Assembly: GCA_047975285.1 (NCBI GenBank) | Contig: JBKEDG010000091.1 | Span: 18 to 64,017 of the forward strand | Length of the DNA: 64,000 bases | DNA from: Bacilli bacterium | Lineage (GTDB): Bacteria > Bacillota_I > Bacilli_A > JBKEDG01 | Reading direction: 5' to 3' | Made by a program: the position numbers and the translations under genes | Shown: in pieces, positions 23,976-63,981 of the stretch | How the letters are laid out: the number at the start of each line of letters is the position of its first letter | Position numbering within the stretch: the first letter of the stretch is position 1 | The notes under the pieces: generated by a model | What the model was told of the DNA's origin: nothing | What the model saw: the letters and a program-made list of their open reading frames with translations, nothing else | Database searches by the model: none

Positions 23976-24482
23976 TTATTTATCATTCTTACTAAATAAC
24001 TGATTAAATACATCAGTAAAATATTCCTCATTACTATTGCTGTCTTTGCTATCATAAAGTTGTGATGAGTCGTTAAACTCTCCACTCTTTAATGAAATTA
24101 TTGCTGGTACACCTTTAATATCATATTTTTCAAAGTAATGCTCAAATTCATCACTTGTAGTATTAGCATAATATATAATCTTAACTCCGTATTCTTTTGC
24201 AACTGAATCTAATATAGGCGCCGCCTCTATACAATACGGTCAAGTACTTCTTCCAAAAAATATGTATGCATCTTCCTTATTATTAATAACTTCTTCTAAT
24301 TTAATAGCATCTACTTTTACAAAAACATGGTCACTTTTAAGTTTATATCCTTCAAAGTTTATATCCTCTATTTCCTTAGAAGTTTCTTGCGGTTTTTCTT
24401 CCGACTTATCTTCACCTTTAGAACAACCTACTAATGTAAATGTTAATAACACCGCGCTCATTGCTATAATGATTTTTTTCAT
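23976..24482 (-). CDS. 168-aa thioredoxin-fold lipoprotein with a UxxC motif (in-frame TGA at 24240-24242); candidate selenoprotein
   Basis: Lipobox LVG-C20. Sequence IFFGRST-[TGA]-PYCIEAAPIL. 87 sense codons follow the TGA, including the cis-Pro motif GVPAII, to TAA at 23976. ATG is coupled to the buk stop (TAAGATG). Confidence 0.82.
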
Positions 24483-24483
24483 C

Positions 24484-25551
24484 TTAATATACCATCGCTT
24501 TCTCTTCTTCATCTAAAATTCGTAATGTTCCTTCAACTAATGCTTGCAATTCATCTTCACCTGGATAGATTAGCACTTGAGCAATAAATTTTACACGATT
24601 TTTAATCCATCCTGTCAACATATCATTATGAGCAAGACCCCCTGTAATAATAATTGCATCCACTTCTCCATAAAGACTTGCACTTACACTTGCAATTTCC
24701 TTACTTATTTGATAAGCAAGAGCTTCAAAAATAAATTTAGCTTTTTCATCTCCACTTGCAATCATTTTAGAAACTTCAAGTCCATCATTAGTTCCTAAAT
24801 GTGCAACTAACCCACCATTCCCATAGTTTTTTTTCTTTATCTCTTCAAGAGTATATTCATTTGCAAATATTGATTTATATAATTTCCCAAGTGGAACAGT
24901 TCCACTGCGTTCAGGTGACATCGGACCATCTCCATCCAAAGCGTTGTTAACATCAATAACTTCACCTTTACAATGTGCCCCAACACTGATTCCTCCTCCA
25001 AGATGTGCTACAATCAAATTCATATCATTATAATTTTTACCTATTTCTTTTGCATATCGTTTAGCGACAGCTTTTTGATTTAAAGCATGAAATAAACTAT
25101 CTCTTGGAAATTCAGGCATTCCTGTAACTTTTGCAATATCTAACATTTCATCCACTGCAACAGGATCAACAATATATGCTTCTACACCTATAGCATCAGC
25201 AATTTCTCTTGCAATCACACATCCTAAATTAGAAGCGTGTTCACCCCTTGGAGCAACCTTCACATAGTCTAGCATTGTTTTATTAACAATATAAGTACCA
25301 CTAGGAATTGGCTTAAACATACCGCCACGACCAACAATAGCACTAAGTGAGCCCAACTTTATACCTGCTTCATCTAGTTTTTGTAATATAATATTTTTTC
25401 TAAATTCATACTGATCAAATATAGTATCAAATTTTTCTAACTCCTCATTACTATGTCTTAATGTCTGTGTAAAAACACATGTTGTTTCTTCATATACCGC
25501 AATTTTCGTGGATGTTGACCCTGGATTTAAAGCTAAAATTTTTCTTTTCAT
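24484..25551 (-). CDS. buk: Butyrate (branched-chain carboxylate) kinase
   Basis: NPGSTSTK, GRGG, HASNLG, HALNQKA, AHLGGGISV and GP.SPERSG. Confidence 0.95.
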   Translation of the reverse strand: MKRKILALNPGSTSTKIAVYEETTCVFTQTLRHSNEELEKFDTIFDQYEFRKNIILQKLDEAGIKLGSLSAIVGRGGMFKPIPSGTYIVNKTMLDYVKVAPRGEHASNLGCVIAREIADAIGVEAYIVDPVAVDEMLDIAKVTGMPEFPRDSLFHALNQKAVAKRYAKEIGKNYNDMNLIVAHLGGGISVGAHCKGEVIDVNNALDGDGPMSPERSGTVPLGKLYKSIFANEYTLEEIKKKNYGNGGLVAHLGTNDGLEVSKMIASGDEKAKFIFEALAYQISKEIASVSASLYGEVDAIIITGGLAHNDMLTGWIKNRVKFIAQVLIYPGEDELQALVEGTLRILDEEEKAMVY

Positions 25552-44009: not shown

Positions 44010-44205
44010 CTATATTTTTTTACAAAAAAATATCTATGCAAGGACGCTTACGCGCGGTACCACCTTGCTTTAGATATATCTACTCTTAAATGTTTAACGC
44101 ACATCAACGATTTTACTCCATGACAAGTTCACAACAAATATTGTTAGTTCACACCGACCACTAACTCTCTGAAAATATTTTTACTTGCTAATACTTCACT
44201 TCCTA
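44010..44205 (-). ncRNA. T-box riboswitch (Leu, CUU specifier) upstream of leuS
   Basis: AGTA box, AGAGA bulge, GGTGTGA loop, GAA-CTT specifier (44125-44127) and T-box AAGGTGGTACCGCG (44053-44066) pairing with CGTCCTT. Confidence 0.93.
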
Positions 44206-44219
44206 GTAAATTTAAATAT

Positions 44220-46796: not shown

Positions 46797-46872
46797 TGGT
46801 GGCTCCAGACGGACTTGAACCGCCGACACGTGGATTTTCAATCCACTGCTCTACCAACTGAGCTATGGAGCC
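46797..46872 (-). tRNA. tRNA-Phe (GAA)
   Basis: 76-nt cloverleaf; anticodon arm GTGGA-TTGAAAA-TCCAC; encoded CCA. Confidence 0.97.
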
Positions 46873-46881
46873 ATAAAAAAA

Positions 46882-46957
46882 TGGCGGTCCAGACGGGACT
46901 CGAACCCGCGATCTCCTGAGTGACAGTCAGGAATGTTAACCACTACACTACTGGACC
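46882..46957 (-). tRNA. tRNA-Asp (GTC)
   Basis: 76 nt; CCTGA-CTGTCAC-TCAGG; G73 discriminator; CCA. Confidence 0.97.
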
Positions 46958-46958
46958 A

Positions 46959-47035
<77 letters not shown>

Positions 47036-47062
47036 ATAATAAAATATTACAATAAATTTTAA

Positions 47063-47155
47063 TGGCGGAGGAAAAGGGATTCGAACCCTTGCGCCGTTCT
47101 CACGACCTGCCGGTTTTCAAGACCGGTCCCTTCAACCAGGCTTGGGTATTCCTCC
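47063..47155 (-). tRNA. tRNA-Ser (anticodon TGA)
   Basis: 93 nt; long variable arm; CCGGT-CTTGAAA-ACCGG; G73; CCA. Confidence 0.97.
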
Positions 47156-63554: not shown

Positions 63555-63572
63555 AAAATTACCATGCTAATC

Positions 63573-63641
63573 TTTTGTAGTCCTAAAATTTACGGTTTTA
63601 AGGTAGATACGCGTCTTCCATATCAAGACAATTATACAAAA
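63573..63641 (-). ncRNA. Purine (guanine-sensing) riboswitch
   Basis: P1 TTTTGTA/TACAAAA; L2 GATATGG; J2/3 GTATCTAC; L3 CCGTAAA; GAC-TAC with C at the discriminator position. Confidence 0.95.
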
Positions 63642-63873
63642 TATTTACATTAATATTATATCATACTATTTACAATTTCTCTACAGTTTCCATTGTCATG
63701 AGATTATTTTAATATAATTTTATCACAAGCGAAGGCTAAAAATGTTGTAAAAAACCAACGACTATTAACATATGTATACAGAACTTGATCTAAAAACTTC
63801 ACCTAAATTTTTCAATTGATTTTTACTATAAAATAAACATTTGGCAATATATTAAAAAAGAGCAAAAAAAAAG

Positions 63874-63981
63874 ACCGGCAATGTCTAAGTCTCGCACAAA
63901 CGTACTACAATTAGCGCTAAAGTGCTTAACTTCTGTGTTCGAGATGGGAACAGGTGTATCCACTTTGCTTTACTCACCGTT
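63874..63981 (-). rRNA. rrf: 5S rRNA (short, ~108 nt), probably the 3' end of an rrn operon
   Basis: CACCTGTTCCCATCTCGAACACAGAAGTTAAGC core; terminal helix CGGTGA/TTGCCG; ends approximate. Confidence 0.93.

What the first reader, a model, noticed from the sequence alone, without database searches (positions are those of the whole stretch)
23976..24482. Exported thioredoxin-fold lipoprotein with a UxxC active site
Seen: the ORF track stops at FFGRST*, but the frame continues TGA-CCG-TAT-TGT (U81-P-Y-C84) for 87 codons, including the cis-Pro motif GVPAII. The N-terminus has a lipobox (LVG-C20). Downstream RNA can form UAU(AG)AGGC-[GGC]-GCCUAUA with a G-starting loop 17 nt after the UGA, compatible with the loose bacterial SECIS model. 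Known: Sec typically replaces the first, nucleophilic Cys of CxxC, and GRxTCPxC is typical of Gram-positive bacteriocin-accessory-type thioredoxins. Inference: a surface-exposed seleno-oxidoreductase, translationally coupled to butyrate kinase.
Basis: partly seen in the sequence, partly recalled or inferred. Interest (0 to 1): 0.85.

Follow-up and report, generated by a model that had tools for sequence, protein, structure and literature searches.

The report
Unannotated selenocysteine thioredoxin-like lipoprotein gene
The in-frame TGA is almost certainly a selenocysteine codon at the active site of a small lipid-anchored, cell-surface thioredoxin-like enzyme; gene callers cut it in two, but it belongs to an already known kind of bacterial selenoprotein.

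Summary
On the minus strand, 24482..23976 encodes a 168-aa protein with a lipoprotein signal (LVG-C20), a thioredoxin fold and one in-frame TGA (24242..24240) at the first Cys of CxxC (U81-P-Y-C84).

The two nearest genomes searched (42% and 30% protein identity) keep TGA at the same column. More distant homologues have Cys there. Four metagenomic relatives appear with 'W' at that column. One of them is also recorded as two fragments that break exactly there, so its codon is TGA.

A hairpin with a G-first 3-nt loop starts 17 nt after the UGA in all three DNA sequences. Three of its base pairs show compensatory changes. The genome has selD (itself Sec-containing), selA, selB and tRNA-Sec(UCA), plus GrdB and a small glutaredoxin-like UxxC protein.

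The fold is confident (pLDDT 90.1). Its best PDB match is the S. pneumoniae bacteriocin transport accessory protein 1ZMA.

Verdict: a real, unannotated UxxC selenoprotein, and a new member of a known kind. Its surface redox function is inferred.

Side observation: two TGA=Trp genomes of the same class appear to encode Sec with CGG, using a tRNA-Sec with anticodon CCG.

The parts
23976..24482 (-). Whole gene: 168-codon thioredoxin-like lipoprotein with one Sec codon (stop TAA at 23978-23976)
   Evidence: Translation with TGA read through. Pfam PF00085 scores 28.8 bits against a 23.5 cut-off. The AF2 model has pLDDT 90.1.
24423..24482 (-). Lipoprotein signal peptide (residues 1-19) and lipobox Cys20 (L-V-G-C)
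   Evidence: Read from the sequence. Cys20 is invariant in all 7 members of the Sec clade. Lgt and LspA are present in the genome.
24240..24242 (-). In-frame TGA, proposed Sec81 (first position of U-P-Y-C)
   Evidence: It aligns with the invariant Cys of CxxC in homologues. TGA is kept in G001 and G002.
24231..24233 (-). Cys84 codon (resolving Cys of UxxC)
   Evidence: Invariant in alignments A1, A2 and A5.
24212..24230 (-). SECIS-like hairpin core AUA.AGGC[GGC]GCCU.UAU; the loop starts 17 nt after the UGA
   Evidence: The folds of three orthologues place the hairpin at the same position. 22 of 24 cells are paired and 3 pairs show changes on both sides. It uses the rare GCG-GCG Ala codons (GCG is 7.5% of Ala codons).
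24105..24107 (-). cis-Pro126 codon of the thioredoxin fold (GVPAII)
   Evidence: Invariant in 76 family members.
24484..25551 (-). Upstream butyrate kinase gene; its TAA is 1 nt from the ATG of the selenoprotein gene
   Evidence: TIGR02707, 524.2 bits. The junction was read. The same order is found in G001, with a TAATG overlap.

Best explanation
The gene encodes a genuine selenoprotein.

Decoding (inferred from the sequence evidence): the mRNA is probably co-transcribed with butyrate kinase. Ribosomes reaching UGA81 are met by SelB carrying Sec-tRNA-Sec(UCA), recruited by the short hairpin whose G-first loop lies 17 nt downstream. Selenocysteine is inserted and translation continues to the TAA.

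Export (inferred): the precursor leaves through the Sec translocon. It is lipidated at Cys20 by Lgt and cleaved by LspA. A roughly 20-residue flexible linker then tethers it to the outer face of the membrane.

Catalysis (inferred): the thioredoxin domain with U81-P-Y-C84 opposite cis-Pro126 carries out thiol-disulfide exchange on extracytoplasmic substrates. The selenolate attacks, and a selenenylsulfide with Cys84 is the oxidised form.

Shown here: the gene anatomy, the Sec/Cys pairing, conservation of the TGA, the conserved hairpin, the machinery and the fold.

Not shown: actual selenium insertion, lipidation, the direction of the redox reaction and the substrates.
For: 1. TGA conservation. 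The closest homologues in 61 related genomes are G001 (42% identity) and G002 (30%). Each has one in-frame TGA at the same column: FFGRST-U-PYC, FFGRSS-U-PYC and IIGSPT-U-PYC.
2. Sec/Cys pairing. All more distant homologues aligned have Cys there. G77, C/U81, C84, Y104, Y105 and P126 are invariant in 11 sequences.
3. Selection downstream of the TGA. In the 7-member Sec clade, 8 of 13 invariant columns lie after the TGA (P82, C84, A87, P89, A95, Y105, V125, P126).
4. Metagenomic relatives. Among the best 150 of 9128 hits in 1.84 billion representatives, four relatives (28-43% identity, all with a lipobox) show 'W' at the Sec column. The cluster of one of them also holds a 68-aa piece ending ...GRVT and an 80-aa piece starting just after. 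Both lie on the same longer contigs, so the codon is a stop under table 11 and W under table 4, which means TGA.
5. Hairpin. It sits at nt 13-31 after the UGA in all three DNAs, with loops GGC, GGC and GUU. 91.7% of cells are paired, 3 pairs have compensatory changes, and 13 of 500 shuffles reach the observed value. GrdB and SelD of the same genome have hairpins of similar geometry, with loops starting at nt 22 and nt 20.
6. Codon choice. The stem uses GCG-GCG for Ala-Ala, and GCG makes up 7.5% of 15,072 Ala codons.
7. Machinery. selD (with its own TGA), selA and selB sit together on contig C8, and tRNA-Sec scores 69.4 bits with anticodon TCA.
8. Genetic code. The genome uses table 11. PcrA and Buk are intact, there are 1618 TGG codons, and TGA ends 121 of 967 long ORFs.
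9. Fold. The model has pLDDT 90.1 and a thioredoxin topology, and its best PDB match is 1ZMA.
10. Lipoprotein pathway. Lgt and LspA are present.
Against: - There is no direct evidence of selenium insertion or expression. No sequencing run could be listed.
- Only three orthologues are available as DNA, so the covariation support is thin. 13 of 500 shuffles reach the observed value, and this control is known to be lenient.
- The G001 hairpin folds at -6.4 kcal/mol in a 48-nt window, which is weaker than the -7.5 of the published bSECIS model.
- Similar hairpins follow about 2% of random TGA triplets.
- For three of the four 'W' relatives the TGA is inferred rather than seen.
- No DsbD/CcdA, DsbB or VKOR partner was found in this 99.5%-complete genome, so it is unknown how the enzyme would be recycled.
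Confidence: 0.88

Rival explanations
1. The TGA is a true stop. The cell makes only an 80-residue lipopeptide, and the downstream 87 codons are a decaying remnant (pseudogene) or a sequencing error of TGT/TGC.
For: Table 11 gene calling stops there. Public protein collections hold no full-length form of the G000, G001 or G002 proteins. There is no expression evidence.
Against: The same TGA is present in three genomes whose proteins are only 30-42% identical. The downstream part is the best conserved part of the protein, including C84 and cis-Pro126. An 80-residue product would lack half of the thioredoxin fold. No other frame disruption is present.
Confidence: 0.03
2. UGA is read as tryptophan (table 4) or another standard residue in this organism, giving a W-P-Y-C protein without selenium.
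For: Four relatives are stored with W at this column. The same class contains lineages that read TGA as sense: PcrA of family f12 has 3-6 in-frame TGA.
Against: In G000 the 706-aa PcrA and the 355-aa Buk have no in-frame TGA. TGG is used 1618 times in long ORFs, and TGA closes 121 of 967 long frames. The column is the catalytic Cys in every Cys-type homologue. The other in-frame TGAs in the genome sit at the known Sec sites of SelD and GrdB. The 'W' forms are best explained by table-4 gene calling on short contigs.
Confidence: 0.03
3. The UGA is decoded through the Sec machinery or by near-cognate tRNA but mostly yields Cys (or a mixture). The protein would then be functionally an ordinary CxxC thioredoxin, and the TGA would act mainly as a selenium-dependent expression switch.
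For: Cys-type homologues are the norm: 235 of 399 class genomes have family members, and only the three f1 genomes carry the TGA among the 150 matches listed. Four f3 genomes with selA still use Cys.
Against: The TGA and the hairpin are kept across deep divergence (28-43% identity). That argues for selection on Sec itself. No evidence for Cys insertion exists in this system.
Confidence: 0.05

Closest known systems
Sec-containing thioredoxins and thioredoxin-fold UxxC selenoproteins. These include Trx PF00085, thiol:disulfide interchange protein PF13098, thiol-disulfide isomerase-like cd02966, and DsbA-/DsbG-like proteins, as listed in Table 1 of PMC13188914 (section 7 read).
   Same: Thioredoxin fold; Sec at the N-terminal nucleophilic position of U-x-x-C; Cys-type homologues; a bSECIS-type hairpin right after the UGA; the PF00085 hit is above its gathering score.
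   Different: It is a lipid-anchored extracytoplasmic protein of a low-GC monoderm lineage, and its nearest relatives are PedC/BrcD/Bta-like rather than cytoplasmic TrxA. It matched none of the curated NCBIfam selenoprotein models above cut-off; the best selenoprotein-named model was TIGR02187 at 24.1 bits against a cut-off of 185. The words lipoprotein, signal peptide, secreted and periplasm do not occur in that review.
Bacteriocin transport accessory protein of Streptococcus pneumoniae (PDB 1ZMA) and the PedC/BrcD bacteriocin maturation disulfide isomerases (TIGR01295)
   Same: 1ZMA is the best structural match (Foldseek E 2.3e-7, TM 0.62 on the target, 28% identity over 89 columns). It is also among the best profile matches (E 3.8e-11). 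60 of 76 family members hit TIGR01295 at E<=1e-5. Both are membrane-tethered extracytoplasmic CxxC thioredoxin domains.
   Different: The window protein scores 24.8 bits against a 120-bit cut-off. It has Sec instead of Cys and a lipid anchor instead of a transmembrane helix. It sits between butyrate kinase and pcrA, with no bacteriocin or ABC exporter genes beside it.
Exported or lipoprotein selenoproteins of Gram-positive anaerobes, e.g. SaoX, SaoB and SaoC of the SAO system (bioRxiv 10.1101/2022.07.06.499078, passages read)
   Same: These are precedents for signal-peptide or lipoprotein selenoproteins exposed outside the membrane in Clostridia-like bacteria, and they too were found as truncated ORFs.
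   Different: They have different folds (ABC substrate-binding proteins, small CC-COOH proteins) and a different gene neighbourhood. The thioredoxin-like SaoT (NF040730) was not among the NCBIfam hits of this protein at E<=0.01.

Membership tests
Bacterial selenoprotein (UGA-Sec decoding) | The in-frame UGA aligns with Cys in homologues (Sec/Cys pair) | tested here: met
   U81 aligns with the invariant first Cys of CxxC in 8 Cys-type homologues. The column is nearly invariant Cys across the 76-row alignment.
Bacterial selenoprotein (UGA-Sec decoding) | The UGA is conserved in orthologues of other organisms | tested here: met
   G001 and G002 carry TGA at the same column. The P0048 cluster is split exactly there. 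Three further 'W' relatives are inferred to carry it.
Bacterial selenoprotein (UGA-Sec decoding) | bSECIS as in the Fig. 2 legend of PMC13188914: 3-9 nt loop, 4-16 bp upper stem, G in the first two loop positions, 16-37 nt spacing, MFE <= -7.5 kcal/mol | tested here: met
   G000: loop GGC, 4+3 bp stem, 17-nt spacing, -7.8 kcal/mol for 48 nt. G002: 8 bp stem, loop GUU, -12.5 kcal/mol. G001 meets the geometry but folds at -6.4 kcal/mol, which fails the energy limit. No dedicated bSECIS program was available.
Bacterial selenoprotein (UGA-Sec decoding) | The genome encodes selA, selB, selD and tRNA-Sec | tested here: met
   Scores against their cut-offs: selA 549.7 (267.9), selB 344.8 (242.25), selD 322.5 (125), tRNA-Sec 69.4 (47). 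The tRNA-Sec anticodon is TCA.
Bacterial selenoprotein (UGA-Sec decoding) | Selenium is actually incorporated (75Se labelling or mass spectrometry) | not testable with these tools
   No experiment was possible, and no sequencing run could be listed.
Thioredoxin family (Pfam PF00085) | Score above the gathering threshold; thioredoxin fold with a CxxC-type motif and cis-Pro | tested here: met
   28.8 bits against 23.5. The AF2 model shows a beta-alpha-beta-alpha-beta-alpha-beta-beta-alpha topology at pLDDT 90.1. PDB matches are thioredoxins. P126 is invariant.
PedC/BrcD bacteriocin maturation disulfide isomerase (TIGR01295) | Score above the curated cut-off (120 bits) | tested here: not met
   24.8 bits, E 1.7e-5.
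PedC/BrcD bacteriocin maturation disulfide isomerase (TIGR01295) | Encoded beside bacteriocin and exporter genes | tested here: not met
   The neighbours are ispF, a DUF1893 gene, butyrate kinase and pcrA.
Bacterial lipoprotein | Signal peptide ending in a lipobox [LVI][ASTVI][GAS]C (consensus recalled from memory, not taken from a call) | tested here: met
   MKK + hydrophobic stretch + L-V-G-C20. Lipobox-like LVGC, ITGC, LTSC, FTGC, IVGC, LVGC and VTGC occur in the 7 clade members.
Bacterial lipoprotein | Lgt and LspA are present in the genome | tested here: met
   PF01790 244.6 bits and PF01252 125.6 bits.
Bacterial lipoprotein | Lipid modification demonstrated | not testable with these tools
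   This needs an experiment.
Thioredoxin-like selenoprotein SaoT (NF040730) and other curated Trx-like selenoprotein models | Match to the NCBIfam model | tested here: not met
   These models are not among the 15 NCBIfam families listed at E<=0.01.

The most novel reading that the evidence does not exclude
The seven-member clade would be a separate selenoprotein family not yet in the published inventory: a Sec-bearing, lipid-anchored branch of the PedC/BrcD/Bta-like extracytoplasmic thioredoxins of small-genome Bacilli-type gut bacteria.

The organism lacks DsbB, VKOR and CcdA/DsbD. Selenium may therefore let this surface enzyme work without a dedicated membrane redox partner. For example, a selenenylsulfide could be recycled directly by small thiols or by the substrate. 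That would be a selenium-based solution to extracellular disulfide handling in anaerobic monoderms.
Probability: 0.2. Interest if true: 0.45.

Novelty: new member of a known kind. Interest (0 to 1): 0.3.

Why it matters
The finding corrects an annotation. One real gene is split or truncated in every public protein set searched, or is mistranslated with Trp.

It adds a lipoprotein, PedC/BrcD-like branch to the UxxC thioredoxin-fold selenoproteins. The lineage is one in which Sec use is rare: selA was found in 16 of 399 sampled genomes of the class.

It also gives a compact, conserved Gram-positive SECIS (7-8 bp stem, 3-nt G-first loop, 17 nt from the UGA) that could be used to screen related genomes.

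None of this changes how selenoproteins are understood. The side observation of CGG-encoded Sec in TGA=Trp relatives is potentially more important than the finding itself.

Tried and rejected
- The word-indexed protein search with the read-through protein gave 0 hits at E<=1e-5. It was uninformative because the Sec forms are stored truncated.
With the narrower alignment A3 it returned one Cys-type locus only (L082, CPWC).
- The search for related loci on metagenome contigs found nothing. A degenerate DNA pattern for (U/W)P[YF]Cx E A [AV] P gave 11 stretches, all chance matches in non-coding frames of unrelated GC-rich contigs. The DNA behind the 'W' proteins therefore could not be fetched.
- The look-up of sequencing runs listed no run. 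No RNA holder was listed, so there is nothing on expression.
- The search of earlier findings by place and by sequence returned nothing.
- A naive genome-wide scan for U..C / C..U in TGA-read-through frames gave 184 mostly spurious contexts. It was useful only for picking out GrdB and the Grx-like gene.
- TlpA/ResA/redoxin membership was considered and rejected: there are no PF08534 or PF00578 hits at E<=0.01.
- A functional link to butyrate kinase was considered and rejected, because the adjacency is kept in the same genus only.
- The TGA in the G035 homologue (L038) lies near the C-terminus after an intact CATC motif. It is taken as that gene's normal stop, not a Sec codon.

Full report
**Observation**

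The feature lies on the minus strand. Translation of 24482..23976 with TGA read through gives 168 residues:

MKKIIIAMSAVLLTFTLVG-C20 ... YIFFGRST-U81-PYC84-IEAAPIL ... KGVP126AII ... NDK

- The TGA is at 24242-24240 and the terminal TAA at 23978-23976.
- Under table 11 the ORF list shows only a 90-aa piece, 24240..24512.
- The start at 24482 is preferred over the ATG at 24512. It gives a canonical lipoprotein signal, and the orthologues begin at the same place.

**Context**

- Upstream on the same strand lie ispF (PF02542), a DUF1893 gene and butyrate kinase (TIGR02707, 524 bits). Downstream lies pcrA.
- The butyrate kinase stop and the start of this gene are separated by one base (TAA-G-ATG).
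- In the same-genus genome G001 the order ispF-buk-this gene-pcrA is kept, and the stop and start overlap (TAATG).
- In G002 the neighbours differ.
- Buk is 86% identical between G000 and G001 and PcrA 64%, but this protein only 42%. It is a fast-evolving protein that nevertheless keeps its TGA.

**Is the TGA a Sec codon?**

1. Machinery.
   - The 1.53-Mb genome (28.6% GC, 99.5% complete) has selD, selA and selB adjacent on contig C8. All score above their curated cut-offs, and selD itself contains a TGA at GG-U-QAK.
   - It also has a tRNA-Sec of 69.4 bits with anticodon TCA.
   - Other selenoprotein genes are present: GrdB (PF07355, 533 bits, U342 in UGTCTRC) and a 90-aa glutaredoxin-like protein with DF-U-GGC.
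2. Genetic code.
   - The genome reads TGA as stop elsewhere. PcrA (706 aa) and Buk (355 aa) have no in-frame TGA.
   - TGA closes 121 of 967 frames of 200 or more codons.
   - TGG occurs 1618 times in long ORFs.
3. Sec/Cys pairing.
   - A search of 61 related genomes found matches in 38.
   - The two best, G001 (42% identity) and G002 (30%), each have one TGA at the same column (FFGRSS-U-PYC, IIGSPT-U-PYC).
   - The next homologues have Cys there: CSYC, CPAC, CPTC, CPWC, CSAC, CGWC and CSHC.
   - One other TGA-containing match (G035) has an intact CATC and a TGA near its C-terminus, taken as its ordinary stop.
4. Breadth.
   - A profile search of 399 genomes of the class found family members in 235 at E<=1e-8.
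   - Among the 150 matches listed, only the three genomes of family f1 carry a TGA. A further 273 weaker matches were not listed.
   - A HMMER profile search of 1.84 billion representatives gave 9128 hits, 2245 of them at E<=1e-10.
   - Among the best 150, four proteins have 'W' at the Sec column: P0009, P0048, P0100 and P0140.
   - These four are 28-43% identical to the window protein, and all have a lipobox.
   - The 90%-identity cluster of P0048 also contains a 68-aa protein ending ...LFGRVT and an 80-aa protein beginning (M)PILNDV.... Both lie on the same two longer contigs.
   - That codon is therefore a stop under table 11 and Trp under table 4, which means TGA. For the other three 'W' proteins this is inferred.
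   - No full-length G000, G001 or G002 protein appears in either collection, as expected for genes truncated by gene callers.
5. Selection downstream of the TGA. 8 of the 13 invariant columns of the seven-member clade lie after the TGA.

**SECIS**

- Folding the 48 nt that begin at the UGA gives a hairpin at nt 13-31 in all three DNAs:
  - G000: AUA.AGGC[GGC]GCCU.UAU, -7.8 kcal/mol.
  - G001: GUA.UGGC[GGC]GCCA.UAU, -6.4 kcal/mol.
  - G002: CAAGAGGC[GUU]GCCUCUUG, -12.5 kcal/mol.
- On the three-row alignment, 22 of 24 cells pair and three pairs change on both sides. 13 of 500 column shuffles reach these values, and slid controls give 25-58% pairing. RNAalifold finds the same helix.
- The published bacterial model asks for a 3-9 nt loop, a 4-16 bp upper stem, G in the first two loop positions, 16-37 nt spacing and MFE <= -7.5 (PMC13188914, Fig. 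2 legend, passage read). G000 and G002 meet all of this. G001 misses the energy limit.
- The stem is built from GCG-GCG Ala codons, and GCG is 7.5% of Ala codons in this genome. The E-to-V change in G001 is matched by a synonymous CCU-to-CCA change opposite it.
- GrdB (CGUUGC[GGU]GCAACG, loop at nt 22) and SelD (UAGGGC[CGGGA]GUCCUA, loop at nt 20) of the same genome have similar geometry.
- Controls:
  - Of 3000 random TGA triplets of the genome, 2.1% pass a loose version of the model, and 1.7% have a G-first hairpin loop 15-19 nt away.
  - Eleven active sites of Cys-type homologues show no conserved hairpin at this position. Two near-identical ones have a hairpin with an AUA loop at nt 11-25.
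- The hairpin alone is weak evidence. Its conservation with covariation is moderate evidence. The argument rests mainly on the Sec/Cys pairing and the conserved TGA.

**What the protein is**

- Family hits. Pfam PF00085 is above threshold (28.8 against 23.5), with weaker TraF, Thioredoxin_3 and Glutaredoxin hits. NCBIfam gives only sub-threshold hits: TrbB, MJ0307-type, TrxA, and PedC/BrcD at 24.8 against 120.
- Structure. An AlphaFold2 model on a 76-row alignment has mean pLDDT 90.1 and pTM 0.76. Residues 1-39 are of low confidence (signal and linker), and residues 40-168 form a thioredoxin fold with an extra N-terminal beta-hairpin and a C-terminal helix.
- PDB matches. Foldseek ranks 1ZMA, the S. 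pneumoniae bacteriocin transport accessory protein, first (E 2.3e-7), followed by classical thioredoxins. A profile search of PDB sequences also finds 1ZMA at 3.8e-11.
- Wider family. 60 of 76 members hit TIGR01295 PedC/BrcD at E<=1e-5. The family is thus a distant relative of the PedC/BrcD/Bta extracytoplasmic disulfide isomerases. The window protein fails that model's cut-off and has no bacteriocin neighbours.
- Lipoprotein pathway. Lgt and LspA are present.
- Membrane redox partners. DsbD/CcdA, VKOR and DsbB were not found in this genome, while the control genomes responded.
- Paralogues. G000 has two membrane-anchored Cys-type paralogues (CSAC and CVVS) and a cytoplasmic WCGPC thioredoxin.

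**Evolution**

- A maximum-likelihood tree of the 76 rows places the seven Sec/'W' rows inside a 12-row group (SH-aLRT 84), together with one well-supported five-row Cys clade.
- The best tree needs two changes of state, and strongly supported branches allow one. None of 500 label shuffles is as clustered. The Sec column itself was not removed from the alignment.
- selA above cut-off occurs in 16 of 399 sampled genomes of the class. These include all three f1 genomes and four of eight f3 genomes whose homologues of this protein use Cys. Having the machinery is therefore not sufficient, and the Sec form is lineage-specific.

**Mechanism**

The proposed mechanism is SelB- and hairpin-dependent insertion of Sec at codon 81, then Sec-translocon export, lipidation at Cys20, and thiol-disulfide exchange at the membrane surface by a U81/C84 selenenylsulfide couple. 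All of these steps are inferred. The direction of the reaction and the substrates are unknown, and the lack of a recognisable recycling partner is unexplained.

**Comparison with what is known**

- The 2026 inventory of 119 prokaryotic selenoprotein families (PMC13188914; section 7 part 1 and passages read; supplements not seen) lists Trx (PF00085, UxxC), thiol:disulfide interchange protein, thiol-disulfide isomerase-like, DsbA-like, DsbG-like, redoxin and SaoT forms. The kind is therefore well established.
- Lipoprotein selenoproteins exposed outside the membrane have precedent in the SAO system (bioRxiv 10.1101/2022.07.06.499078, passages read).
- Two literature searches found no paper describing a Sec-containing PedC/BrcD/Bta-like lipoprotein. 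That is only absence from the held library.
- Earlier notes of this scan report several exported UxxC thioredoxin-fold lipoproteins in other phyla. These are unchecked leads, and they lower the surprise.
- My rating is a new member of a known kind, with interest 0.3.

**Side observation (not part of the finding)**

- In the class-wide selA search, two genomes of family f12 (G184 and G282) have full-length selA.
- f12 genomes read TGA as sense. Their PcrA homologues carry 3-6 in-frame TGA. In 40 kb of G282, long ORFs hold 119 TGA against 9 TGG.
- Both genomes also have selB above cut-off and a Cys-type selD. Beside selA lies a tRNA that matches Rfam tRNA-Sec above gathering (54.6 and 51.9 bits) but has anticodon CCG.
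- Next to this cluster lies a prdC-prdA-prdB operon (TIGR04481 490 bits, TIGR04480 822 bits, TIGR04483 400 bits).
- The known Sec positions of PrdB (LTAG-[CGG]-GTCHR, in both genomes) and PrdC (GTCES-[CGG]) are CGG codons.
- These two are the only CGG codons in ORFs of at least 250 codons in that 40 kb.
- This suggests that Sec is encoded by CGG in a TGA=Trp lineage.
- Natural Sec recoding to UAG, UAA and ten sense codons is reported by Mukai et al. 2016, as cited in PMC10778597 (passage read). The original paper is not held, so I could not check whether CGG or table-4 bacteria are among those cases.
- Three searches found no paper stating it.

Noticed in passing
L101:1497-1593(-) and L102:1497-1593(-) (tRNA); L109:13112-13900(+) PrdB and L109:9665-11026(+) PrdC of genome G282; L108 PrdB of G184: Two genomes of the same class read TGA as Trp: PcrA has 4-6 in-frame TGA, and 40 kb of G282 hold 119 TGA against 9 TGG. 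Both carry selA, selB, a Cys-type selD and a tRNA-Sec-like gene with anticodon CCG. The Sec positions of PrdB (both genomes) and PrdC are CGG codons, and these are the only CGG codons in ORFs of at least 250 codons in that 40 kb. Sec therefore seems to be encoded by CGG there. No paper stating this was found, and Mukai et al. 2016 could not be read.
   Followed up: partly
G000 contig C88, L078:230-502(+): A second unannotated UxxC selenoprotein in the same genome: a 90-aa glutaredoxin-like protein, MDKIIMYGADF-U-GGC... (PF00462, 30.5 bits). A 9-bp hairpin with a GAA loop starts 32 nt after the UGA.
   Followed up: partly
G000 contig C103, L077:173-1456(+); contig C8:10375-14570: GrdB selenoprotein (U342, PF07355, 533 bits) and a selD(Sec)-selA-selB operon. 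The organism probably runs a glycine/betaine-type Stickland reductase.
   Followed up: partly
protein P0010 (303 aa, two thioredoxin-like domains): One domain reads GRSS-G-AWC, with Gly at the column where relatives have Cys, Sec or 'W'. This could be a real loss of the nucleophile or a TGA translated as Gly under table 25.
   Followed up: no
window 44037-44213(-), 63558-63659(-), 63873-63981(-), 46800-47155(-): A T-box leader (104.6 bits), a purine riboswitch (77 bits), 5S rRNA and a cluster of four tRNA genes.
   Followed up: no
G000 contigs C4:23580-23924(-) and C21:29535-29930(-): Two membrane-anchored Cys-type paralogues of the family, with active sites CSAC and CVVS. In the second, the resolving Cys is replaced by Ser.
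   Followed up: no
L021 (genome G019 C34:38111-38995): A Cys-type homologue made of two tandem thioredoxin-like domains in one 323-aa frame (CSYC and CFYC). Multi-domain forms with up to 8 matched stretches also occur among the metagenomic hits.
   Followed up: no
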